64,000 nucleotides of DNA. Source: Chrysomallon squamiferum (taxonomy: Eukaryota > Animalia > Mollusca). The number at the start of each line of letters is the position of its first letter. Position 1 is the first letter of the stretch. The translations under genes were made by a program, and so were the position numbers. The DNA lies in the NCBI GenBank assembly GCA_012295275.1, contig CM022671.1, positions 17,980,001 through 18,044,000 of the forward strand. Reading direction: 5' to 3'. Positions 38,060-61,551 of this stretch are shown piece by piece. The notes beneath the pieces are model-generated. The model had not been told where the DNA came from. It saw only the letters and a list, made by a program, of their open reading frames with translations, and made no database searches.

Positions 38060-39495
38060 AAAGAAGTCTTCCACAGTATACAGATTTAAGTAACATTATT
38101 TTGAAAATATTATTTTATTGTTTATCATTGAATTGCACACTAACAGAAAATTTAGATGTGGAGACACTCACATATACTCATATCATCTTAAATATTTCAA
38201 TCCCTTTAATACCTAGAATATTGTATCCAGCATAAATATATATTTTCATTTGCAATTGCTTTGTTTGTTTGATGTGTTTTTTTCTGTTATGAATATTACA
38301 AATATGAGTCTTTGAATTAAAAGAACTTCAGATAGAAAAAAAATCCTAATTATTTTTTTAGAGATTTCAGCAAATTTTGTTGAGTGAATATTTTATATAA
38401 ATTATAATAATCCTAACATACAAATTAAACTGAGCCGATTAACAACAATATTTTAATGTTAAATATATTGCAAAGAATATTGAGTACAAAGTAAATTTAT
38501 TAATAAATGTGACAGGCAAGTGTCCTTGTCATCAGTTTACTCTTGTTTTTTGTTTTTTCAAAAACTGTTTTTAACAATTTGTGTCAAAGAACAGAATATT
38601 TCATGCCATCACTATTTTTGTTAATACATTTCAGTCTCAACACACTGACCATTCATGATTACAAATTAGAGCCCTGTTTTTAGTACTGAGAACATACCAG
38701 TTTAATCATTAAGAAAACTAAATTTAGTAAATAAAAATCTGGTTAGTTGTTAGTAAAAATCTTGGTATCCCAGTTTGTTGTCTACTATCATTCTTTTTGA
38801 AATATATATACATTTCAGATCTACCTGTTACTGATAGAGATTTTTAAAAAAGAAATAAAAACACTGTTATAGGCAATATGTTATCATCAAATTTGTTATG
38901 GCAGCCCTATCTGAACCATGCCCTCATCTACTGGACATTTAACAAAACCTAACAATTATTAATTGGTTTCTTTCTACCTTAGGGTATTTTAATATATATA
39001 TACATTTCACACAAATTTTTTTAAAAATTTAATGTTTTCTGTATTAAAAGGTTACCTCTTGATTAAGCATGTATTTTAACACCATTAAATAACAAGTTAT
39101 TTTACCTAGAATAATGTAACACAACAGACTTAATCCAATCTGACATTATTTTACTAATAAATATACAAGATTTTTGAGAACTTGAAATATTTTAATCTTT
39201 TACATTATGATATTTATTAAATCAACTGGGGATTTGTTCTGGTTATATACAAGTTAAGACAATCACACTTCCATATATTATAATTACTGCTTTCATTTTT
39301 TTTTTTTTTCACAACAGACACACTCCAACCTCCAATTTCTACTACACAACAATGTTAACATTATTTTTTTTTTCAATTTCACATCGACTTATGTTTTACT
39401 ATATTCCTTTTGTTTGTTTTTTCTTTCTTTTTTTTTTTTTTTTTTTTTTTTTTTTCTTGTTAAAAAACACACTGGAATATACACATGCACACATT

Positions 39496-40128
39496 TTACA
39501 TTTCTTCTTTTGTTTTTTCCTTTGAACCGAGAAGAGATTTCTCTTTTTCAATCCATTTATCCATATCCTGAAAAAAAAAAATTAAATATATACAAATAAA
39601 TGCATAAAATATAATATATAAATATACAACTGAGTGCTATAAACAAAAATGAAAGACAAAGTTGCCCATAAAATCTACCAATGATGAAAAGTTAATGTTT
39701 ATTTTGTTAACAATGTATTTAGAAAATCTTATTTAAGTGTTACATAAATAATCAACATTTTAACACAGATCATATCAACAATCTTATCCACCACAAAAAA
39801 AAAAAAAAAAAATTATTTTCTGTTGTTCTTGAAATTTATTAGTCTTTTTTTTTTCTTTTCCCCATTAAAATTTTATATTAAAAGTATATTTAAATTTTAT
39901 ATTTTGAAGTTCAAACATATACTTCACAAATAACTGATGTTTATTATTTACACTCTACCATAAAAGATTTCAGATAAGGGGTAGATGAAATGTACAATTA
40001 ACACTGTAATGGACATTCACCTCTAAGGGTTTGTAGTAAATATGAACCACTTGTGCTCCTGCACCCATAGTCAACAATGCAGCTGCCAAAAATCTGAAAT
40101 AACCTGGAGGCAAGCGTCCCACCACCAT
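39496..40128 (-). CDS. UQCC6: BRAWNIN / C12orf73 / sloth2 complex III assembly microprotein, 59 aa, 2 exons
   Basis: Exons 40128-40021 (GAG|gtgaat) and 39567-39496 (tttcag|GAT) give MVVGRLPPGYFRFLAAALLTMGAGAQVVHIYYKPLEDMDKWIEKEKSLLGSKEKTKEEM. This matches the recalled family signature (human AMCAGAEVVHRYYRP; fly AGSQAVHLYYKPLED). Strong start context aaaaATGG. Confidence 0.92.
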
Positions 40129-40274
40129 TTTTGATACAGAACACTAATTATATCCAAACACTATGTGAAATCCACCGAAATGTCTATGTTAGTATGTATT
40201 GTTTATTATAACACGTTATCACTAAAAGGTCTCAGCAGAAAAAGAATGTACATCAAAATGTTGATTTTATGATA

Positions 40275-41439
40275 TCACAGTTTATTTTTAGATGTTGCTG
40301 AAGTTTCCAGACTCTGCATAGCAATTTTATGTGCTTGTTTTTCCTTGTATACTGAATCTAAAGAAGAGAAAACAAAACTGTAATGAAAGTGAAATACTTT
40401 TAGATCATACTAATGCACAACTAGCCAAAATGTATTTAATGAAAAAAAAAACCATTTGATTATTTGATATAAATTATTTACATTAATATTTAATGACCGT
40501 TTCAAAATGTCACACACCTGCCAAAAACAGTAAAATAAGGCCTACCACGTTAATCCAAATAAACAAAAAATGATTTAGCATGCATGTGTGTGTTCTTGAT
40601 GTGATTTTATAAAACTGTTTTGTTAAAATAATTAGTTTTAGATTCTAAAATGTTCACGTACATCAAATGCATTCAAGAACGCAGCTTTAATCAACATAAA
40701 CGAAGCCGTGCATCAACCTGTCTAATCACTGACAGAATGAATAATTAATTTCTCTTATTAATAGCAAAGGATGTATTATGTTAACTTTCCCATTGATAAC
40801 ATCAAAGAGCACTAGCTGTGCTGAAAATAACCGACGCGGAACAATAAAGACTGATCATCAAACCTCTAACAAGTGTTGAAATGGGAACCATTCGTCAAAG
40901 TTAAATAAAAGAATATTTGAAAAATAAAAATAAAAAAATAAAAAATAAACGAAAACTGATCAAAATATTAATATAGATGCTCGACGTATAAAAGATAAAT
41001 AGGCTGATATTCTCTAATGCCCCAGCATGATCTTAACTTCTTTAAACGGTTATTCAGTTAAAAATGTTAATAAATTCGTTTGGATCACGTTTATTTCCAT
41101 TTGGCATTTTCCAATTTGAATGTCTAGCGGATTTCAATTTTGAGAGTTATGTCCCTTCTACTTGAATCGTCAGTCCCACATTTTATAAAATAAATATAAT
41201 GCAAACCAATGCATCAGCCATAACTGCGAAAATTATGTTATTTCATTCTTACATATGGAATATTTCACAAACTTACAAAAGTTAATCTGTCCTACTCTCC
41301 AATTTACCATTGAAAACTCAACTGCAGCTCCCAAAACAAAAAAAATCGGAAGAAATCTATACATTCCAAACGTTTTTTTCCCAGGCCATGCCTGCATAAT
41401 GCGTTGAATTGTTCTACTAAAAAAGAATCTACTAATCAT
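40275..41439 (-). CDS. UQCC5: SMIM4 / sloth1 complex III assembly microprotein, 81 aa, 2 exons
   Basis: Exons 41439-41277 (T|gtaagt) and 40357-40275 (tttag|AT). WPGKKTFGMYRFLPIFFVLGAAVEFSMVNWRVGQINFYSVYKEKQ matches the recalled human PGKQRFGIYRFLPFFFVLGGTMEWIMIKVRVGQETFYDVYRRK. Confidence 0.94.
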
Positions 41440-41692
41440 GATTTTATTTTAGGACATGTGCTCACTTTCTTGTCTCATTTCACCTTTCAGTTGCTGACAT
41501 TTTGTAACTTGCCCATGCGCAGAGTAAACTTTCAGAATACTAGAAATGTGCCGAGAACGTTGATTGGATTAATCACATTTATCAACCAATCACATCTTAG
41601 TTTACACGATTATTCCTGTTTAGAAAAATCTGCAGAGAAAATGGGAGCACTTACCGAATAACTGGAAAGATTAATTTCATATAATCTGTTAG
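41440..41692. promoter_or_regulatory. bidirectional promoter SMIM4/TDG and probable non-coding TDG exon 1
   Basis: NRF1-like TGCCCATGCGCA 41510-41521; oppositely oriented CCAAT boxes (ATTGG 41563, CCAAT 41586); donor AG|GTATGT at 41692/3; CpG-retaining surroundings 40500-42170. Confidence 0.75.
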
Positions 41693-42184
41693 GTATGTTT
41701 GGCTTTAATTTTCCTCTCGATAAAAGGCTTTACTAATCAAGATTTCTGTTCAGCTACTTGGTAAAACAACTGCATTAATATACATCAAAATCAAATACTG
41801 GTCATCGTGTATTGGAAGTTGAAATGGCCCTCTCGGCCACTCTGCCATTGGGCCATTGTCATTGTTTCGTTTAGTTGAGATTTCAAAAGTCCCTGATGAA
41901 TCATCTGATTTGTTGTCTCAGATGTCCAGAATTAAGTTTGCGATCGATTTCTAGTGAACCTTTTTTAGTCGGAACATTACCACCGTTTCTTAATAAAAGG
42001 TAATTATTAAATTTGTATTTATCGGGGATTCAGTTACTGAGCTTATTCGTTTCCAGATTTTCGTTATTCATTTTACGATGAAAAAATAATTTTAAAAAAT
42101 GACTGGTTTAATCGTATGCATTTGATATTATTTTAAATCATTTATATTTTTATTCCACTGTGTACGTTTTGTTTATGTTGCCCA

Positions 42185-42187
<3 letters not shown>

Positions 42188-42232
<45 letters not shown>
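42188..42232. repeat. (GT)n microsatellite
   Basis: Directly visible. Confidence 0.95.
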
Positions 42233-42234
<2 letters not shown>

Positions 42235-43380
42235 TTTTTTGTTTATCCCAAAGACTTTAACTAATGGTAATGACTAATATAATATATCCGTAATGTATTA
42301 TTATTCATTATAAATTCATTATATATCCTTTAATTAAATATGAAGTTTAAAATAATACATAAATGCAAAATTGTATATAACACAGTTGTAGAAAAACAAG
42401 ATACTGACATGACATATATGTGTGCATGTTGTTCAGCTAGTTGCACACACACACACACACACACAATAATATATCTATATGTGTGCCAGTATATATGTGT
42501 GTTTTTATATGAATTATTAATATCTAACTCAACTCTAAAACTAACCGTGAAATTAACCCTGAACCTAGAGGCAGAAATTATTATATTTCTTGAATAGATC
42601 AGTTAATGTTGATAATGTATTGTTTGATAGTGGATGAACTAGCTCTGATTATTTGTCCTCAGTGTAAATCCAGTTAGTGTTCCCATCTTGTCAAAGATAT
42701 TTGACATTACTGTTTAGCAGAACGTGAAAAATGGTGTCCTTTTGCTAATCTTTAAGTTTAAAATCGGTCAAAAATATAAGGACTGGTTTTATTGGTTGTA
42801 TCCATTACAAATCACATGGTTAGCAGCTTACAACTGGTTGTTTTTATGTGAAATCATAAACTTTGTTTTTCCAATAACCTCAGTATAAAATTTTATGTAG
42901 AAACTAGAAGAGAATATCAGTGGAAACAAAACAACTGTTAATACAAAAACATGTTGAGACATTAAATATTTGTTTAATCATTTGATCTGAACATGTAATG
43001 ATATCTTATGTATGTTCACATGTTGATCATTAAATGAAAAATTCCACTGAGCAAAATCATCAAAATTATTCTTACTTTGATAATAACATTCAATTAGATT
43101 TTATTAATATATATTTTTTTTTAAATTAATGTTATTAATATTTCAGCAACAATTAATTATTTGATTAAACATTAACATCACTTAAACATGAAATACTTCA
43201 ATACCTGTTATTTGTTGCTGGACCATTCATTTATAAAACTCTAATTCTAATAAAGTATGCCAGTATTCAATAAAATAGTTTAAAAAGATAAATCATAAAA
43301 AGAAGAATTGTTCAAATATTTATTTTTATTAGTTTTACAATTGATAATTTCTTCCTGCTGGCCTGCTTTATAGGGACAGA

Positions 43381-43606
43381 TGTAAATAAAATAATTAATA
43401 CTGAATCTTATTAATGCACTTGTTAAACCAATGACTTGATGCTACAGCTGGTTAAACTGCTGTTGTTATAAGACCAACACCTTCTTTGTTCCTGTAAACA
43501 AAATAATTAATACTGAATCTTATTAATGCACTTGTAAAAAACCAATTACTTGACCCTAAAGCTGATTAAACAGTAGTTGTTATAAGACCATCACCTTCTT
43601 TGTTGC
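43381..43606 (+). repeat. tandem duplication of about 112 bp (2 copies)
   Basis: 43381-43492 and 43493-43606 share aaaataattaatactgaatcttattaatgcacttgt and gttgttataagacca.caccttctttgtt. Confidence 0.9.
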
Positions 43607-43911
43607 TATAAATAATAGTAATTTTCAAATATTCTGGCATAAAAGAAACCAAAAAATGCACCTGTTAGACAGATATGGGTTGTTTTTTTTGTACATATTA
43701 AAAAGGTTAAAGTGAAGTATTTTATATAACTAATGTAAGACAAATGTTTAAGAATCAGAATTTTTTTTTAAATACAAGTCAAAAACAAGTAATCTGCTTG
43801 ACTGTCAGACTCAAAGTGATAAAGTTTATGTTTATTTTACTGTTTTGATTTTCATGTTATTGAAATATATTTGTTTTATTTTTCAGTGCAGCTTTTTGAT
43901 TGCACTGTAAG

Positions 43912-45631
43912 ATGGATATGAGCAACCAAAACATGTATGTTCAAGCTCTGCTCTTCTTTTCTTTTGTTGTTGTTGTGCACAAAAAGTACAAAATATAGTG
44001 TAAACTAATAAAAAAAAAAAAATGTATGACTATATTGTTTAATTTTATTAATAAATAAAATTTAAATAAATAGAAAAGAATATGGCATGGTCTATCGGTT
44101 TGGGGGTAATGAACCTTTAAAGAGTTCATCTACTTCATAAGAATGAAAATAATAATATAAATGTGTTTGTAACAATGTTCTATTCTTTTAATAAAAATAG
44201 TAATAATTCATGCCTAACTGATTTGAATAGTTGTTTGAGGAATGTAATTACTTCTGCAGGTACAGGTGTAAAAACTAATTAACAATGCAATACCTAATAA
44301 CACACTAATACACTATTTACACAGTGTAATACATATAACAATGTTATACACAATATTGTAATAATTTAAACTAACACAATGTAACATATAATGTAATAAA
44401 TTAACATAATGCAATACATAATGTTGTAAGAAAGTAACACATTAATGATTATGTAAATTCTAAGAAAAATAATTTGTTTTCCTTCGATATAACTTTTATC
44501 TCCTCTTCTTTCTGAGTACTGATTTATAAGTATTTATTATTGCTTTATTTTCTTAACATATATATATATAATTTGAATTTTTATTTATGTTTTACTTCTT
44601 TTTTCCTTTCTTAAACATTTCTTATTATTGTTCTTTTTTTTTACTTTATTTTTTTGTTATTATTTTTTCTTTACCTTCTTATTTTAATTTTTTTTTTTTT
44701 TACATACTTGTTTTATTATTATTATTATTATTAATATTATTATTATTATTATTTATTAATATGAAAAGATTTTGGAGAAAATATTGACGAATAAAACATA
44801 TTTTTAGGTTTTTCCATCAAATGCAGTCCTACCAGGCTTATGCACAGCAACAAATGATGAACTCACAAATGGGAATTATAGATCAGAAACCAATAGGACT
44901 TGTACAGCAGTTTGGGAGGGATGAACAGAATGTTAATACAACAGAGAAGAAACCTGCAAAGCCATCTAAAAGAAAGAAGAAAGTGAAGTAAGATAAAAGA
45001 AGTTATGAGAACTGTGATTGGTTCGTTTACTTCATGTATGTGTGGTGTGTAATCAAAGTAGTTTTCACTGGATCTTGTAATATAGCACTATAATCCCACC
45101 AAAAAAATAAAAAAATAAAATAAAATAAAATAAAATAAAATTTAAAATGGCCTGAAACTGTATTTAATTCACTGTATATGTTTTCATCATTCATTTATAT
45201 TTACTGAGCTTTATAATTCAAAGATTGAAAACTATTTTTATTATTATTATTTATTTATATATATTTTTAAATTTTTATTGTTTAATGTAATAGATTAGAT
45301 GCCAACAAGTTTGAATTAATAATTTGAAATGTTAATATTGACTTGATAATTGTGAAATATTTATTTATTTATAATTATCTTAGTAGCTTTCTGTGAATGT
45401 GAACACCATTTAATAAAACACCTTTATTTTACAGTGGAGATTACATACATATATAAATATTGTAAAATAAACTGATGTGTACTGTTCTTTGATGATGATG
45501 ATTATTATTAGTAGTAGTAGTAGTGGTGTGGTGGTAGCAGTAGTAGTATAATTGTTATTTTTATTTTTATTTTCTTTAATTATTTTATTATTATTATTAT
45601 TATTTTTATTATTATTATTATTATTATTATT

Positions 45632-45672
<41 letters not shown>

Positions 45673-46232
45673 AAAATATTTTAAAAATCAGGCCATATCA
45701 ATGATATTTTCCAGTGGAATTAATTAATATAACAATTTTCTTTACTTCATCCTCCGATTTTTCTTCGTTTATTTTTCAAATTATGATCTTATTATTTCAC
45801 AACAGAAAAACAAGCACATAAAATTTATACTTCAAAATAACCCTTTTTTTTTTTTTTTTTTTTTTTGTTTGTTTGTTTCAGAAGATAGTTTTACTAGAAC
45901 ATTTTTAAACATTTTTAAACATTGTGTTTATTTTACAGGGAAACTGTTACTATTAAAGTAGAAGATGGGGTCACAGACAAGAAGAAGATGAAACAGGCTA
46001 AAATTACAGAACATCTGACAGTGAGAAAGAAACGAGACAGATTCAACGGAATGCCAGAGGAAGATGTGATCAAGAGAACTCTCCCAGACCACCTCGCAGA
46101 AAACCTTGATATCGTTATTGTAAGTTCTTAAAGATATAAACAATTTTTTTTTTAAATTAATTAATTAAAAAATTTAAGATTAAAAAGTATTCATGATGAT
46201 GAGCTTTTATAATAATATTCACTTTTTTTAAA

Positions 46233-46295
<63 letters not shown>

Positions 46296-47886
46296 GGAAG
46301 AATCTTTTCCATATTAGACTTTATTTTTAACTTAAGAATTTAAACCATAAATACTCTGTCACACTGTTTTGTTTTAATTACTGAAACCATTAAATTGAAT
46401 TGTTTACACCAAGTAATTCTAATCCTGTAACTTTTTGGTTATGAAGAAGTTGCTTAAATAATTTTTTCTTTACTTCTTAATGATTCTTTTGATTCATATG
46501 ATCAGTATAACTAATAGGAAAATACATTAAAATGCAAGCATGCATTAAGACTAACAGTTATCCAGCTGTATTGTGATGGTATTTTGTATATGTTGGAATA
46601 TCAAAAATACTTGATAGACTGAGTATGCAGTAATTTTTATCTTCTCAGTTTTGTTTTGTTTTGTTTTGTTTTGTTTTGTTTTGTTTTGTTTTTATTTTAT
46701 TTTATTTTATTTTATTTTATTTTATTTTATTTTATTTTATTTATTTATTTATTTATTCAAAAAATATTCCCATGATAAATATTTAAATATTCTATTAAAG
46801 GATAAATTAATTCTTGTTTTCATGTAAAAATAATATGTAAAAGTGAAAATGATATAAAAATAACTGGTTTTATAACAAATAGAAGACAGTGGCTTCTTAC
46901 ATGTAATAAAATTTCTGAAATTATTACTCAGTAATCTTGTTTGTCTGGGGGCTTATATTCATTAGAGAAGTTCAGCTCTGAATGGTTCAATTTCAATGAA
47001 TATTTATTAGCAGCTCCTTAATACATTTTAATAATACAAACTTACTAGACTCAGATATTCTTGCAGTATAATACTGAGCAATGAACCTTCTGTATGTACT
47101 TACTAACAAAGCAGTTATGGGGCAATAAATGAAACAGAATTCATTACATGTAAGTTATTTGTCAGGAAGTATTAACAAAATAGATTACTGAATTTTCTAA
47201 ATTAATTTGGATAATCTGTTTCAGATTGGTATTAATCCTGGATTATTTGCTGCCTATGTAGGACATCACTATGCAGGACCAGGAAACCATTTTTGTAAGT
47301 TGTTTTTAATATATTTTATGTGATCTGACATTATTTGAATTATTAAATTGTCTTGGTTAATGTAAGAATTCGGACCTCATAGCAAAAAAAAAAGTGGTCT
47401 CATAGTTTCTAGATTTGATTTTCTTTTTTATCTAACTGGAACTGCTAAAGAAAAAACTATAATAAGAAACTAAAAAAAAGGCCTTTTTTTATTGTTAAAT
47501 AATGTGGCATAGACATAATTTGTTTTACATGCATTTTGTTCATACATTATTTTCTTTTATCTTTTTCTAAATGTCTAAAAATGTGTATAATTCCTTTTTA
47601 CAAAAAGGTTACTTATTCTTTTCTATGTATGTAATTCAAACATATAAGTAAAATATATAATTTTAGTTATTAGAATATTACATTTGAACTTTTTTTTTTT
47701 TTTTTCTGATATTTTTTAAAAACAATGTGAATAATATTTTAGTAAATACATACATACTTACATTGTTATAATTTTGTATTTATTATTATTTTATTTTATT
47801 TTCAGTATTTAATACAGTAAATGTATTTAGTGATTTTTGTTATTGATATTACTGATTTTTTTTATTTTCATAGAGAAATGTTTGTG

Positions 47887-47932
<46 letters not shown>

Positions 47933-50900
47933 GGTTTTTATTTTGTAATTTTTGTTATTAAAACAACTGACTGTTATTTTTCCACAGGGAAATGTTTGTA
48001 TTTATCTGGTTTGATACCTGAACCTATGAATGCCTATGATGATTCGAAACTGCTGGATTTTGGTATAGGATTTACAAACATTGTTGGCAGAACCACTCGT
48101 GGAAGTGTAGATCTGAAAAAGTAAGCTATTTCTTATTTCTTGTTATTTATTTACTTAACCCTTTGGCACAAAACATACTTCTCAATTCCAGGTATTTTTT
48201 GGGGAAAAATTACCTAAGTGAAATATCAGTTTTAACTTAGGCTAGTGCATTTAGTCGAGATAAGTGGTCTTCTAGCATGTGGAAATATCCTGGCAATGAC
48301 ACCAAAAGGGTTAAGCTTAAAGGTGTTAAATGATAGTGTTTTTGAACAGACACGTAATACTGGGATATACAGGAATATATCAATTTATGTTGTTAAGCAG
48401 ATAAGTACAGGGATTCTGTTCAGTTTGTTGATATATATATATATATATGTATATAGAATCTATTCAGTAAGTTTATACATGCTGAACTTAATGAGTTACT
48501 TATGTTGATCAGTACTTAACTCTAGTTACATGACAAGTTTTTTTTAAACTGTTTACTTAAACATTGCACATCTCATCATATAAAACATATATGAAAATCT
48601 CACATCAACCACCCTCCAGTTAATTTTACTCACAAATGTCTTGTTTATCCCACCATTTATGCAGTGAGCCATAAGATAATGTCTTTATAATCATTATTTT
48701 TACCTAAGCTGTCTTGAAGCCAGGTTTGTTTGCTCCATGTTTTGTTTGTCAGAGAATAGTAAAATTAGGGGTATCTATAGTGTTTTTTAATGGTTCAATT
48801 AGTTCTGCAAATATGTATTTAATCAGATAAAATAACAGTTTTATCTAATACTACTGTTAAAGCTGGTAGAGTATCATTATTTCTTGTTTTATATTATTTC
48901 ATATTAGTTCCAACTTTTTTCTTGTTTAATTTTTATCATTTATGTGAAACTTTTCTTACATGGCCTAGTTATTTTTAAATTTTCTAGTATAAGATTAAAA
49001 ATATATATATAATTTAAAAACTATAGTACTTTAAGATGTTTTTGTTCTGAATTTGTAAATAGATACATTGTTTTTCTCTACATATTTTATAATTTCATTT
49101 TTTAAAATTTGTTTTTCTTAATCCAGAGAAGAAATAAAAGAAGGAGCTCAGATTTTAAAAGAAAAAATCATCAAATACAAACCAAAGATTGCTGTTTTCA
49201 ATGGAAAAGGTTTGCATTTAAAAATGAATCAAGATTTTAATATTTTAAATTATATGATGTTTTATATTTAAACTTTACTGGATTTGATTAGGGGTTTATT
49301 TATTTTTGTTTTCTGTGTAGCAGTGTAAGGCCAGGTGTTTTATATTTTATTATAAATGTTGGTTTATAAAATAGGTGTCACAAATTATTTAATTAAATTT
49401 GTTTCTTTCAAATCTTTACTCCAGGAATTTATGAAGTCTTCTTGGGTCACAAGAATTTCTATTTTGGAAAACAGCCTGAAGTATTAGATGGATCTAACAC
49501 AGTGAGTTTTTTCAAGATATATATATTTTTCATTCCATTGACATTTTCTTTTCATTTATCTTTAAATCCTGTAACTTTGGCCTTTCCTACATTTTAAATA
49601 CATCCCTCAATTATTTTGAAAACATAATGTTAAGTAGATTCCAAAATACATTTCTGTTACAATTATCTGAAGAAGAAATAATTTAATTTTTTAATCATCA
49701 ATTTTTATTTTAAACAAATCAGTTGTGATGAAATTGTTTTTATTGTTACTGTTAAGGTTTTCTTTAATTAAACAAATAACATTAGATGGAAAATTGTTTT
49801 TATTGTTATTTTTTTATTGTTATTTTTAAGGTTTTCTGTGTTTAAACAAATCACATCAAATCAACTGGATTTTCAAGGTTGTCTGTGTTTAAACAAATGG
49901 ATATCAGGATGAAATTGTTTTTAATGTTATTTTAAGGTTTTCTGTGTTTAAACAAATCAAATCAGGTTGTCGATGTTTAAACAAATTAAATCAGGTTATC
50001 TTGATGAAATTGTTTTGTTATTTTCAAGGTTGTGTAAAAACAAATTGTTTTGTTTTGTTATTTTTAAGGTTGTCTGTTTTAAACAAATCACATCAGGATT
50101 TTATTGTTATTGTTAAGGTTTTTTGTGTTTAAACAAATCAAAATTGTTATTTTAAAGGTTTTAAACAAATCACATCAGGATATCATGATGAAATTGTTTT
50201 TGTGGTTATTGTTAAGGTTTTCTGTGTTTAAACAAATCACATCAGTATAATTGTTTTGTTATTTTCAAGGTTGTCTATGTTTAAACACATCACATCAGTA
50301 TAATTGTTTTGTTATTTTCAAGGTTGTCTATGTTTAAACACATCACATCAGTATAATTGTTTTGTTATTTTCAAGGTTGTCTATGTTATGCCGTCCTCAA
50401 GTGCCCGTTGCGCTCAGCTTCCGAGAGCAGTGGACAAGCTACCGTTCTTCACAGCCCTGAAGAAACTTCGAGACCATCTCCGTGGCGACATCCACCTGGA
50501 AGACGACTCGGAAGTGACGTTTCCTGACCTAGAGCTGAAGGTGTTCAAGCAGGAGAAAATAGAACCGGTTGAAAACGAAGAAGTTGTTCCAGAAGCTCAG
50601 AAACTGACGGCAGCTTCTGCTTCTGTGCTTTCACATGACATTCAGGTCAGTCCGAACTCAATGTGGCCCCCAGTGAAGCAAGAAAAAGGCTACAACCCGG
50701 CTGATTACGGTGGAATGTCCAACCAGGCACCAATGGCTGCGTCTGCAGCACATGCTCATGCCAAGAATGTGTATAAAAATTCCCATGAGATGAGCTATCC
50801 GCTGACAAACAGTTCAGGAGCTCAGGCGTTGAGTGTGGATCTCACAGTCCCACACACGACTAACTCAGGTTTCTTTCCCAATACTGATCTTCACTCTCTA

Positions 50901-51803
50901 CAACCTATGCAGCAGTTCTACTCGCAGGGAGGGTCGTTTCTTCAGCAGTTACAGGCTCCGTTGATGCCAGATCAGAGTCAGGCTCAGTGTTTTGCTAACA
51001 GACCAAATTGGCAGCAGTTTGGTGGGCCCCAGTTTTATCAGAACCTGGCAATGAACCAGCTGTTACCTCAGGGTCCACAGAACCCAGGATTTAACAACTT
51101 TCCAGGTCAGCAGCAGCAGCAACAACAACAACAGCAGCAGCAGCCTCAGATTCAGATGCACGCTGTTAAAAATGAACCACAAAGTCAGGGTTATGAAAAA
51201 CCTAAAGATAAGAAAACAAACCGTAAGAAAAAAAAGGTGGTTGAAAAGCAACAACAGAGCCAACCACAACAACAACAACAGCAGCAGCAGCAGCAGCAAC
51301 AACCACCACCATTACATCATCTACAACAACAGCCACAAAGCCAACATCCATTCTGTCCTCCAGGCCAGTCTCAGCAAAGTCTGCAGTCACTGACGAATGT
51401 GAAAACTGAATGTGTTGAACTCGGATACGACTGTGCTTTCAGTAACAAGACTAATCTGTTAGACGAGACCCAGGAACATCCATTTCCCCCACAACCGCAG
51501 TGTTTGCAACAGTCCCGCCCACCACCTCCACCACTGCACCATATGCCCCACTCCCTTCAACAAAACAACCATGTTCTGTCGGGAATGCAACAGCAACAGC
51601 AACAACATCCCAACAGCAGCATGGTCAACTCTGAACACAATTCAAACATCTCGGTCAATAATTCAAGTCATATAGGAGGTCAGCATCAGCATCACCAACA
51701 ACAACAACAACAACAACATTCTCCCACACACTTACCATTTGTGGTGAAAAGTGAACCACAAGACTGTGGCTACGAATGTGCAGTGGTAAAGAACTTGAGT
51801 TGA
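43912..51803 (+). CDS. TDG: G/T mismatch-specific thymine DNA glycosylase with a long Q-rich C-terminal tail, 8 coding exons
   Basis: Exons 43912-43934, 44808-44987, 45939-46119, 47225-47294, 47988-48120, 49127-49209, 49425-49501, 50376-51803, in phase. Motifs [21 protein letters not shown] (catalytic Asn), [37 protein letters not shown]. The start exon is less certain. Confidence 0.96.
45586..46750. repeat. intronic simple repeats: (ATT)n/(GTT)n 45586-45672, (ATT)n 46234-46293, (GTTTT)n/(ATTTT)n 46648-46750
   Basis: Directly visible. Confidence 0.9.
48159..48310. mobile_element. piggyBac-type MITE, 152 bp
   Basis: TTAA|CCCTTTGG ... CCAAAAGGG|TTAA: TTAA on both sides and short terminal inverted repeats beginning CCC. 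Confidence 0.65.
49712..50387 (+). repeat. 53-bp-unit tandem array made of the TDG last-exon splice acceptor
   Basis: Unit ttgttttgttattttcaaggttgtctatgtttaaacacatcacatcagtataa, near-perfect at 50251 and 50304, with a partial copy at 50357 that runs into the real exon. About 9 more degenerate copies lie upstream. Confidence 0.92.
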
Positions 51804-59657: not shown

Positions 59658-60392
59658 TTAACTGGGTCCGTTCTGGGTAAGAAATACTGAAGGTAAAGTC
59701 AAGTCACTTCGTGGCACCACTTTGCTCTCGCTGTCTGAATTCCACGCCACAGTTTCTGACGAAGGTTTTGGCTGATTCATGGTCACTGCTATTGGAGGCA
59801 GGATCAGTTGCGCTGTTGAACGTTTGCTTCTTGCCTGGCGCCCCGCTGGGTCTGACTTGGAGCTGTGACGGTCGCGTTTTCGTCGGACGGACTGCAACAG
59901 CGCTGACGTCGATTTCCCCCTGTCAAACAATTCCGGTGGCTTGCGATATTCAAGTAATTTTTTAGCAGCTTTGCGTCTGCGACAGGACGGTGTGTTTTCT
60001 TTGATCCTCTTTTCTATCATGGCTTGAATTGCCTCATTGTTGCCGGTAAGGCCGGGCACGTACAGCAAGTCTTTTTCGGAGTCTAAGTCACAAGACTGTC
60101 TGGCGAGATCGTCGAGGACTTGTTTGTACGCTATATGTTCTTTTAAGTTCTGTCTGTGCTGATTGCCTTCGGCTAAAAGTTTCCTTTCGAAAATTCTCCT
60201 AGCTGCCTCAATTTGCTTCTGCTCGAATTCGAACCTGGCATCCTGCGATTTGTTCAGCACTTCAGTTTCGCTAGATCGGGCAGCGCACTGCCTTTGGAGA
60301 GCCTCCACTCTCGATTCCACGAAAAATGTGCCGTGAAACTCGTCAAAGATCACGCGTCGTGATCGCATCGTGGTGCTGACGTCTTTAGCCAT
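59658..60392 (-). CDS. intronless uncharacterised 244-aa protein (coiled-coil N-half, basic disordered C-half)
   Basis: Long ORF with much higher GC and CpG than its flanks, start context agaATGG, normal amino-acid complexity; family not recognised. Confidence 0.85.
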   Translation of the reverse strand: MAKDVSTTMRSRRVIFDEFHGTFFVESRVEALQRQCAARSSETEVLNKSQDARFEFEQKQIEAARRIFERKLLAEGNQHRQNLKEHIAYKQVLDDLARQSCDLDSEKDLLYVPGLTGNNEAIQAMIEKRIKENTPSCRRRKAAKKLLEYRKPPELFDRGKSTSALLQSVRRKRDRHSSKSDPAGRQARSKRSTAQLILPPIAVTMNQPKPSSETVAWNSDSESKVVPRSDLTLPSVFLTQNGPS

Positions 60393-61551
60393 TCTGGACC
60401 GAGTGTCTCCGTTTTATATACACACTACATTTTGACAGGTGCGTGTTCGCATTAGTCGATTTTAAAAAAGGTCGTTTTGATCCAGTAAACACAACACGTT
60501 CCTAGGCATTCAGACACCGGACGTGTTTGTTGAATGAACAATATACTCACTTAGTTTTTGTGTTCTTGATTTACAGCCATTGTCCTAGCATTTTAAGAGG
60601 GTTTTTTTTTTTTTTTTTGTCTCAAACCAGTAATGAACTGCGCTATATCACTTTGCTGCCGACGGCTCTGGTGAATGATTACATTTCAGTTCAGATTTGT
60701 TTTCCCCTCCCCTTTATATCACTGAATAAAAAGTAGACCCACTGCATTTAATACCGTTAGTATTCGCCATTTAAAACTGTTTTATGTCTGCGTACTTTAA
60801 AGCTCGCTCGAATGGGTTTAATTATTTGGCTAAAATGTGCCCTCCTGGCAGTTTGTGTATATACGTACAGATTATGGTATCAGAAACCAGTACTATGTCT
60901 ATCGATACCTTTTATATATTTAACACATCGCTGCACAAGTTCAATACTGTTGTTTATTCAGACCGTATAAAAAGAAAAACTACTAAACGATTATTGATCG
61001 TCCTGTGGAAAGTTTAATAAGAACAACATGAACTTTTTTTTTTTTTGTATTTGTTTACGTGTATAACACGACATCCGACAGATTTTGTAATTGCATAACA
61101 ATAAAAGAATATTAACTAAATAGGGTCTTGTACGGAAAGTGAAATATCACACTGTGGAGATTATATTAAGCACTGTCACAGCTAAAAAATAATAAAAAAA
61201 TAAAAAATAAAATAAAAAAATTTCACTTTGATTAATAATTATAAATATACACAAAAGTTACTTATTCTTTTTTCTTTCTTTATTATTTTATTTATCTTAT
61301 TTTGTTTTGTTTTATTTTATTTTATTTTATTTTATTTTGTTTTATTTTTGTTTTATTTTATTATTATTTTATATATATATATATATATATATAGTTTTAC
61401 TACATGTCTGTCATTTTATTATTTTCCGAAGACCAAGAGGTTCGTAAAACATTCCCTTCAGAGTGTGACAGAGAGATTTCTAAAACGTGGATCGTCACTG
61501 ACTGTGAATACCATCTGGATAGTTTATTGAAGTCTGTATTCATTTAAGGGT

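What the first reader, a model, noticed from the sequence alone, without database searches (positions are those of the whole stretch)
39496..41439. Bicistron-like SMIM4-BRAWNIN (sloth1-sloth2) microprotein pair
Seen: two spliced small ORFs on the same strand, stop to start 146 nt apart, with no promoter-like sequence between them; the second is invisible to the ORF track. Established: SMIM4/UQCC5 and BRAWNIN/UQCC6 act together in complex III assembly and are bicistronic in Drosophila but on separate chromosomes in human. Inference: an operon-like three-exon mRNA, whose middle exon (40357-40021) ends one ORF and starts the next, persists in this probably lophotrochozoan lineage.
Basis: partly seen in the sequence, partly recalled or inferred. 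Interest (0 to 1): 0.9.

Follow-up and report, generated by a model that had tools for sequence, protein, structure and literature searches.

The report
Two-microprotein gene with a bypass splice
Two small proteins of families that help build mitochondrial complex III are encoded back to back in one spliced gene of this animal, likely a mollusc, a layout already known from flies and lampreys; one RNA assembly also shows a second splice that drops the start of the first protein and likely yields a message mainly for the second.

Summary
Confirmed. The minus strand carries an 81-codon SMIM4 ORF and, 146 nt after its stop, a 59-codon BRAWNIN ORF. Single RNA contigs carry all three exons in 2 of 4 runs, and the spacer is crossed in 4 of 4. 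These are short-read contigs, not molecules. The host is likely a mollusc. The pairing is known from fly, choanoflagellate, sea squirt and lamprey (PMC9681215), and 51 of 70 fetched SMIM4 loci share it, so it is not a lineage oddity. (1) One contig in 1 of 4 runs splices from a 5'-UTR donor (41466) straight to exon 2, removing the SMIM4 start and membrane helix; it has 30 nt on the short side, one below the tool's bar. (2) The gene is head-to-head with TDG, as in 3 of 16 testable loci, and TDG flanks chicken BRAWNIN. The long mRNA has nine AUGs before BRAWNIN, so the bypass likely supplies much of it. The scan's notes held no earlier report of this pair. New variant of a known kind; interest 0.42.

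The parts
41466..41495 (-). Short first exon (30 nt, 5' UTR) of the bypass isoform; also the 5' part of the long first exon
   Evidence: X4 contig of 488 nt: bases 1-30 = 41495-41466 without mismatch, joined to 40357, ends GT..AG, no shared letters
41461..41465 (-). Alternative 5' splice donor (GTGAG), 26 nt upstream of the SMIM4 ATG
41476..41478 (-). Upstream ATG: opens a 9-codon uORF in the long isoform and a 31-codon ORF (SMIM4 tail frame, no membrane helix) in the bypass isoform
   Evidence: computed; use in vivo untested
41277..41439 (-). SMIM4 (UQCC5/sloth1) coding exon 1, codons 1-54, with the hydrophobic helix
   Evidence: Pfam UPF0640 86.3 bits; covered by X1-X3 contigs; best 19-residue hydropathy 1.62
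40358..41276 (-). Intron 1 (919 nt, phase 1), at a position shared with related loci
   Evidence: joint in 3 of 4 RNA runs; a donor follows the same NF/TF codons in the unspliced loci
40275..40357 (-). Exon 2, part 1: end of SMIM4 and its stop
40129..40274 (-). 146-nt spacer, 72% A+T, no unusual fold, variable between alleles; one ATG (40253) lost in two alleles by different changes; AATAAA at 40207; TACTAAC at 40194 lost in one allele
   Evidence: z 0.58
40021..40128 (-). Exon 2, part 2: BRAWNIN (UQCC6/C12orf73/sloth2) codons 1-36, ATG with A at -3 and G at +4
   Evidence: Pfam DUF4516 41.6 bits; Atlas first hit DUF4516, 0.91
39568..40020 (-). Intron 2 (453 nt, phase 0)
   Evidence: abutting pieces in 4 of 4 RNA runs
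39496..39567 (-). Exon 3 coding part: BRAWNIN codons 37-59 and stop
   Evidence: one synonymous variant
38098..39495 (-). Possible 3' UTR of about 1.4 kb ending near an AATAAA at 38119 (weak; may be the convergent XPC 3' UTR)
   Evidence: contigs 38098-39389 in X1-X3; hexamers
41496..41633 (.). 138-nt gap between the 5' ends of the divergent contigs; inferred shared promoter
   Evidence: contigs cannot show true starts
41634..51800 (+). TDG (G/T mismatch thymine DNA glycosylase) gene, head-to-head; first exon about 41636-41692 joined to 43887
   Evidence: joint in X3, loose ends in X3 and X4; exon 47990-48118 matches solved TDG chains, E 6e-7

Best explanation
One three-exon gene beside TDG encodes SMIM4 and then BRAWNIN, and it is spliced in two ways: a long form that keeps both reading frames and, in one assembly, a bypass form that lacks the SMIM4 start and likely supplies much of the BRAWNIN. 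Shown: both ORFs, both introns, contigs of the long form (2 of 4 runs whole) and of the bypass form (1 of 4). Inferred: a single promoter shared with TDG; SMIM4 made from the long form; BRAWNIN made by leaky scanning or re-initiation, poorly from the long form (9 AUGs ahead of it) and better from the bypass form (3 AUGs, fewer in some alleles), so donor choice would set the ratio of the two partners. From known biology of the families: both are inner-membrane microproteins that act with UQCC1/UQCC2 on new cytochrome b in early complex III assembly and depend on each other's level.
For: Long model of 654 nt (41495-39470) equals X3 pieces 1-654; bypass model of 465 nt equals X4 pieces 1-465. The bypass joint uses a canonical GTGAG donor and the very acceptor of intron 1, with a 30 of 30 match and no microhomology. 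The long form has 6 AUGs between the two starts, against a median of 1 (range 1-7) in 14 non-redundant spliced relatives, and a 146-nt spacer against 2-100 (median 17); one out-of-frame AUG (41389) has G at -3 and +4. [quoted passage not shown] Mutual dependence and complex III role: PMC8719881 (passages); stoichiometry matters in flies: PMC9681215.
Against: The bypass joint stands in one contig of one run, with 30 nt on the short side, one below the tool's 31-nt bar for a bridge; all four RNA runs come from one study; contigs give no levels, strand or ends. X2 and X3 assembled the long form only. The bypass form still has three AUGs ahead of BRAWNIN, one opening a 31-codon ORF. A GT[AG]AG within up to 80 nt upstream of the SMIM4 ATG was found in only 1 of 39 related loci with upstream sequence, so this donor is not conserved. 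One relative (L064) has 7 intervening AUGs with a 10-nt spacer, so a high AUG count does not force a bypass. The main donor is the closer match to consensus. No translation data.
Confidence: 0.5

Rival explanations
1. A plain fly-type bicistron: one long mRNA makes both proteins by leaky scanning or re-initiation, and the bypass joint is rare splicing noise.
For: Long form whole in 2 of 4 runs and its junction 1 in 3 of 4. Leaky scanning is shown for the fly gene. Spacers of 14 spliced relatives hold 0 AUGs against 6.7 expected (P about 0.001), and the one spacer AUG here is lost in 2 of 4 RNA alleles by different changes, as expected if ribosomes scan the spacer. The short 10-codon ORF at 41389 could hand re-initiating ribosomes on.
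Against: Nine AUGs precede BRAWNIN, five of them with a purine at -3. In X4 the bypass path was the one assembled onto exons 2-3 (a missing long exon there proves nothing). Spacer AUG depletion fits the bypass form equally, since it keeps the spacer.
Confidence: 0.36
2. Two separate overlapping transcripts: a SMIM4 mRNA ending at the spacer AATAAA (40207) and a BRAWNIN mRNA from an internal start in intron 1 or exon 2; the contigs only look joined.
For: AATAAA and TATAA-like words lie in the spacer; short-read contigs can merge overlapping RNAs; low-depth intron-1 pieces exist in all four RNA runs; SMIM4 without a downstream BRAWNIN occurs in some relatives (L003, L058, L027/L028).
Against: No break or loose end in the spacer in 4 of 4 runs; such words are expected in a 72% A+T stretch; 51 of 70 loci keep the order, with spacers as short as 1-5 nt, too short for a terminator and promoter.
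Confidence: 0.09
3. A nematode-style operon: the precursor is cut at the spacer and BRAWNIN receives a trans-spliced leader at an AG downstream of the TACTAAC.
For: AATAAA, then TACTAAC, then AG dinucleotides at 40163 and 40146 lie in this order.
Against: TACTAAC is destroyed in the X1 allele, a 2-nt deletion lies beside one AG in X2, and no foreign leader appears as a loose end. Contigs drop rare forms.
Confidence: 0.03

Closest known systems
Drosophila sloth1-sloth2 (CG32736-CG42308) bicistronic gene; like pairs in choanoflagellate, sea squirt and lamprey (PMC9681215)
   Same: SMIM4-type ORF first, BRAWNIN-type ORF second, same strand, different frames, similar sizes (81/59 against 79/61 aa), one hydrophobic helix each, good start context on ORF2.
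   Different: Spacer 146 nt against 5 nt; A at -3 on the first ATG in both, but here 6 AUGs between the starts; a 5'-UTR donor that can skip the first ORF's start. The paper's main text has no mention of isoforms, splicing, TDG, molluscs or annelids.
Jawed-vertebrate BRAWNIN (C12orf73/UQCC6) gene
   Same: [quoted passage not shown]
   Different: Monocistronic, with SMIM4 on another chromosome. Head-to-head orientation in human is recalled, not shown by a call.
Human SMIM4 (UQCC5) and C12ORF73 early complex III assembly factors (PMC8719881)
   Same: Same protein families.
   Different: Function in this animal is inferred from homology only.

Membership tests
SMIM4/UQCC5 (Pfam UPF0640) | Profile match above the curated cut-off | tested here: met
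   86.3 bits against 27; invariant PG, G..RF.P.F, GA..E, NF columns in a 32-row alignment
SMIM4/UQCC5 (Pfam UPF0640) | About 70-90 aa with one hydrophobic helix | tested here: met
   81 aa; best 19-residue mean hydropathy 1.62
BRAWNIN/UQCC6 (Pfam DUF4516) | Profile match above the curated cut-off | tested here: met
   41.6 bits against 27 on profile positions 10-36; the first nine residues diverge from the usual MPAGV start but have the same length
BRAWNIN/UQCC6 (Pfam DUF4516) | Inner-membrane location and role in complex III assembly | not testable with these tools
   Known for human, fish and fly proteins
sloth1-sloth2-type bicistronic gene | SMIM4 ORF directly upstream of BRAWNIN ORF, same strand, purifying selection on both | tested here: met
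   variants cluster in the spacer; 3 listed coding variants, 2 synonymous and 1 Phe to Leu
sloth1-sloth2-type bicistronic gene | One mRNA molecule carries both ORFs | tested here: inconclusive
   Single contigs carry all three exons in X2 and X3, but contigs are not molecules; no long reads were offered
sloth1-sloth2-type bicistronic gene | Downstream ORF translated by leaky scanning of that mRNA | not testable with these tools
   AUG load argues against efficient scanning here; needs ribosome profiling or reporters
SL trans-spliced operon | Leader joined at an acceptor in the spacer; conserved processing signals | tested here: inconclusive
   No leader-like loose end and the branch-like word is polymorphic; contigs drop rare forms

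The most novel reading that the evidence does not exclude
Alternative 5' splicing resolves the ancient SMIM4-BRAWNIN bicistron into a BRAWNIN-directed message and tunes the ratio of the two complex III assembly partners; and this bypass form (non-coding exon 1, ORF in exons 2-3, promoter shared with TDG) is a living model of how jawed vertebrates split the pair, one duplicated copy keeping the bypass beside TDG and the other keeping SMIM4.
Probability: 0.25. Interest if true: 0.68.

Novelty: new variant of a known kind. Interest (0 to 1): 0.42.

Why it matters
The pair is a rare, very old animal bicistron. This locus extends it to a likely mollusc with RNA support, and the 70-locus survey shows it is common but has been broken in some lineages. 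If the bypass splice is abundant, it is a second way, besides the fly's leaky scanning, to balance two proteins that depend on each other, and it is cheap to test. The TDG link ties this locus to the vertebrate BRAWNIN gene and suggests a simple route from one bicistron to two genes. If the bypass is noise, the finding is one more member of a published kind.

Tried and rejected
No whole genome is held for this window, so further copies of either gene in this animal were not sought. Word-based homologue search found only 2 relatives of SMIM4 exon 1 and none for the BRAWNIN exon; the HMMER search was needed (215 hits at E up to 0.001, best 150 listed). No solved structure matches either piece. 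A structured IRES-like spacer: not supported, z 0.58. Depletion of out-of-frame AUGs inside SMIM4 in 14 spliced bicistronic relatives: not found, 10 observed against 12.0 expected, P 0.25. Conservation of the 5'-UTR donor: not found, 1 of 39; many of these are spliced transcripts and upstream sequence was 18-80 nt. Spacer lengths over 100 nt computed for intron-containing loci are unreliable and were dropped: L021 has a second intron and a stop-start overlap; comparisons use spliced loci only, so 146 nt may not be the longest. The SMIM4 tree (49 columns) and THUMPD3 tree did not resolve the window's class. Absence of SMIM4 exon-1 cover in X4 is not used as evidence. Literature searches listed no paper on this pair in molluscs, on a bypass isoform or on the TDG link; the library lacks most subscription papers, including Liang et al. 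2022, which I did not see.

Full report
Observation. The exon-coded pieces match Pfam UPF0640 (86.3 bits) and DUF4516 (41.6 bits), both above the cut-off of 27. Named relatives of ORF1 are called small integral membrane protein 4; that DUF4516 is the BRAWNIN family is recalled. Of 77 hits to a neighbouring THUMPD3 exon, 24 carry a species name; 22 are molluscs and the 2 weakest a mite. A tree did not resolve the class. The host is likely a mollusc.

RNA evidence. Five runs hold the stretch: four RNA runs of one study, kept as short-read contigs, and one run of unrecorded kind. In X2 (686 nt) and X3 (698 nt) one contig carries all three exons. X1 is broken at the exon-2 acceptor but has both junctions on separate contigs. 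The second junction is seen as abutting pieces in 4 of 4 RNA runs, and the spacer is crossed without a break or loose end in 4 of 4. X5 runs unspliced through intron 1, so the spliced contigs are unlikely to be DNA. Contigs do not show single molecules, strand, ends or levels. Variation supports coding in both ORFs: 9 listed events in the spacer against 0 in the 191 coding nt of the same exon (P about 5e-4), and 3 listed coding substitutions overall, 2 synonymous. Two differences counted in table 8 are not located, and one record was not shown.

The bypass splice. X4 assembled a different form: 41495-41466 joined directly to 40357, then exons 2 and 3. The donor is a canonical GTGAG 26 nt upstream of the SMIM4 ATG, the acceptor is that of intron 1, the 30 nt match the genome exactly, and no letters are shared across the joint. 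The computed 465-nt model equals the contig's laid part, as the 654-nt long model equals X3's. This form lacks SMIM4 codons 1-54 and its membrane helix. The weakness is plain: one contig, one run, 30 nt on the short side where the tool asks for 31. X3 and X4 both begin at exactly 41495. That fits either a sharp start site (the base is the A of a TCA word, like a recalled initiator) or a graph branch at the donor with 31-letter words; X2 begins at 41487. I cannot tell these apart.

How BRAWNIN is likely made. The long form has 9 AUGs ahead of BRAWNIN, one out of frame with G at -3 and +4; the bypass form has 3, the first opening a 31-codon ORF that ends at the SMIM4 stop. The spacer AUG is lost in X1 and X3 by two different substitutions. 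The spacer has no unusual fold. In the fly gene only 5 nt separate the ORFs and reporters support leaky scanning (PMC9681215). In an engineered bicistron in human cells the second ORF gave about a thousandfold less protein and splicing within the first ORF raised it (PMC11751868). I therefore infer that donor choice contributes to the balance of the two proteins, which in human cells depend on each other and act with UQCC1/UQCC2 on new cytochrome b (PMC8719881). Confidence 0.5; the plain bicistron with a noisy splice stands at 0.36.

Related loci. An alignment of 32 SMIM4 proteins fetched 70 loci from metagenome contigs. A profile built from first hits found a BRAWNIN ORF downstream on the same strand in 51 of 70 and on the opposite strand in none; 6 of 6 checked pass the Pfam cut-off. 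The 51 reduce to 32 at under 90% core identity. Of the 19 without, most end before SMIM4 exon 2 was found; L003 and L058 (spliced, 1.2 and 1.7 kb after the stop) and L027/L028 (3.7 and 5.3 kb) seem to lack it, so the link can be lost, though a diverged BRAWNIN could be missed. In 14 non-redundant spliced loci with a whole first ORF the spacer is 2-100 nt (median 17), holds 0 AUGs against 6.7 expected, and 1-7 AUGs (median 1) lie between the starts; the window has 146 nt and 6. Results against my reading: the 5'-UTR donor word occurs in only 1 of 39 loci with upstream sequence, and out-of-frame AUGs are not depleted in SMIM4. L020 appears by eye to have a separate 5'-UTR intron, as the fly gene does; skipping the SMIM4 exon there would give a like product, which is untested.

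TDG link. Plus-strand contigs begin at 41634-41636 and splice from 41692 to 43887; a later exon matches solved TDG chains. The two 5' ends lie about 140 nt apart. TDG exons lie upstream on the opposite strand in 3 of 16 loci with at least 2 kb upstream (L020, L021, L026; two distinct lineages); in the other 13 TDG may be absent or out of reach. A chicken gene list reads GLT8D2, TDG, C12orf73, HSP90B1 (PMC12937304; orientation not given). [quoted passage not shown] From recall only: human C12orf73 is head-to-head with TDG, and human SMIM4 and C12orf73 lie in paralogous blocks on 3p21 and 12q23. Together these suggest, without showing, that vertebrate BRAWNIN is the ancestral locus that lost its SMIM4 exon.

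What is known. PMC9681215 reports the linked pair in fly, choanoflagellate, sea squirt and lamprey and its separation in jawed vertebrates. Its main text has no hit for isoform, splicing, TDG, mollusc or annelid. Eight library searches listed nothing on a mollusc pair, a bypass form or the TDG link. What I saw: PMC9681215, abstract, passages, sections 5 and 11, and supplementary file 1 with its sequences cut at about 400 letters (files 2-4 unread; they and the figure tree may bear on the taxa covered); PMC7066179, PMC8719881, PMC11751868, PMC13303939, PMC11090417 and bioRxiv 10.64898/2026.08.29.748005, passages only; PMC12937304, one table passage; Liang et al. 2022, nothing. The scan's earlier notes showed one unrelated tricistronic case and nothing on this pair; I took no lead from it.

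Verdict. What is new is RNA support in a likely mollusc, a candidate splice that bypasses the first ORF, and the TDG link to the vertebrate locus. New variant of a known kind, resting on one contig; without it, a new member. Interest 0.42.

Noticed in passing
L021:6711-6963: SMIM4 has a second intron near its end, and after splicing its TGA stop would overlap the BRAWNIN ATG (TGATG), a stop-start overlap of the kind used for coupled translation.
   Followed up: partly
L003:46-270; L058:905-1195; L027/L028: SMIM4 without a detectable BRAWNIN downstream; L003's tail closely resembles the window's. Possible independent losses of the linkage.
   Followed up: partly
L058:1-2939: The spliced SMIM4 ORF sits in a same-strand run of other ORFs (112 aa before; 184-aa ankyrin-like and 163-aa after), perhaps an operon-like transcript or a merged contig.
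   Followed up: no
protein P0221 (658-nt contig): One predicted 189-aa protein matches both UPF0640 and, below cut-off, DUF4516; 1 of 46 long hits scanned. Probably a gene call reading through an intron, possibly a real fusion.
   Followed up: partly
window 40275 versus 40021: The SMIM4 stop lies 254 nt upstream of the last exon junction in both forms, which by recalled rules would invite nonsense-mediated decay unless BRAWNIN is translated.
   Followed up: no
window 17700-37800 (+): THUMPD3 (THUMP and methyltransferase domains) and XPC/Rad4 genes lie upstream on the plus strand; XPC converges on the BRAWNIN 3' end.
   Followed up: partly
window 50376-51800 (+): TDG's last large exon codes a long glutamine- and proline-rich tail of about 430 residues, preceded by tandem intronic repeats at about 49700-50370.
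   Followed up: no
window 38884-38927: All four runs laid carry 135 other letters in place of 44 window letters, so the window's allele or assembly differs here.
   Followed up: no
window 59661-60413 (-): A 251-codon, 50% G+C open frame without a Pfam match.
   Followed up: no
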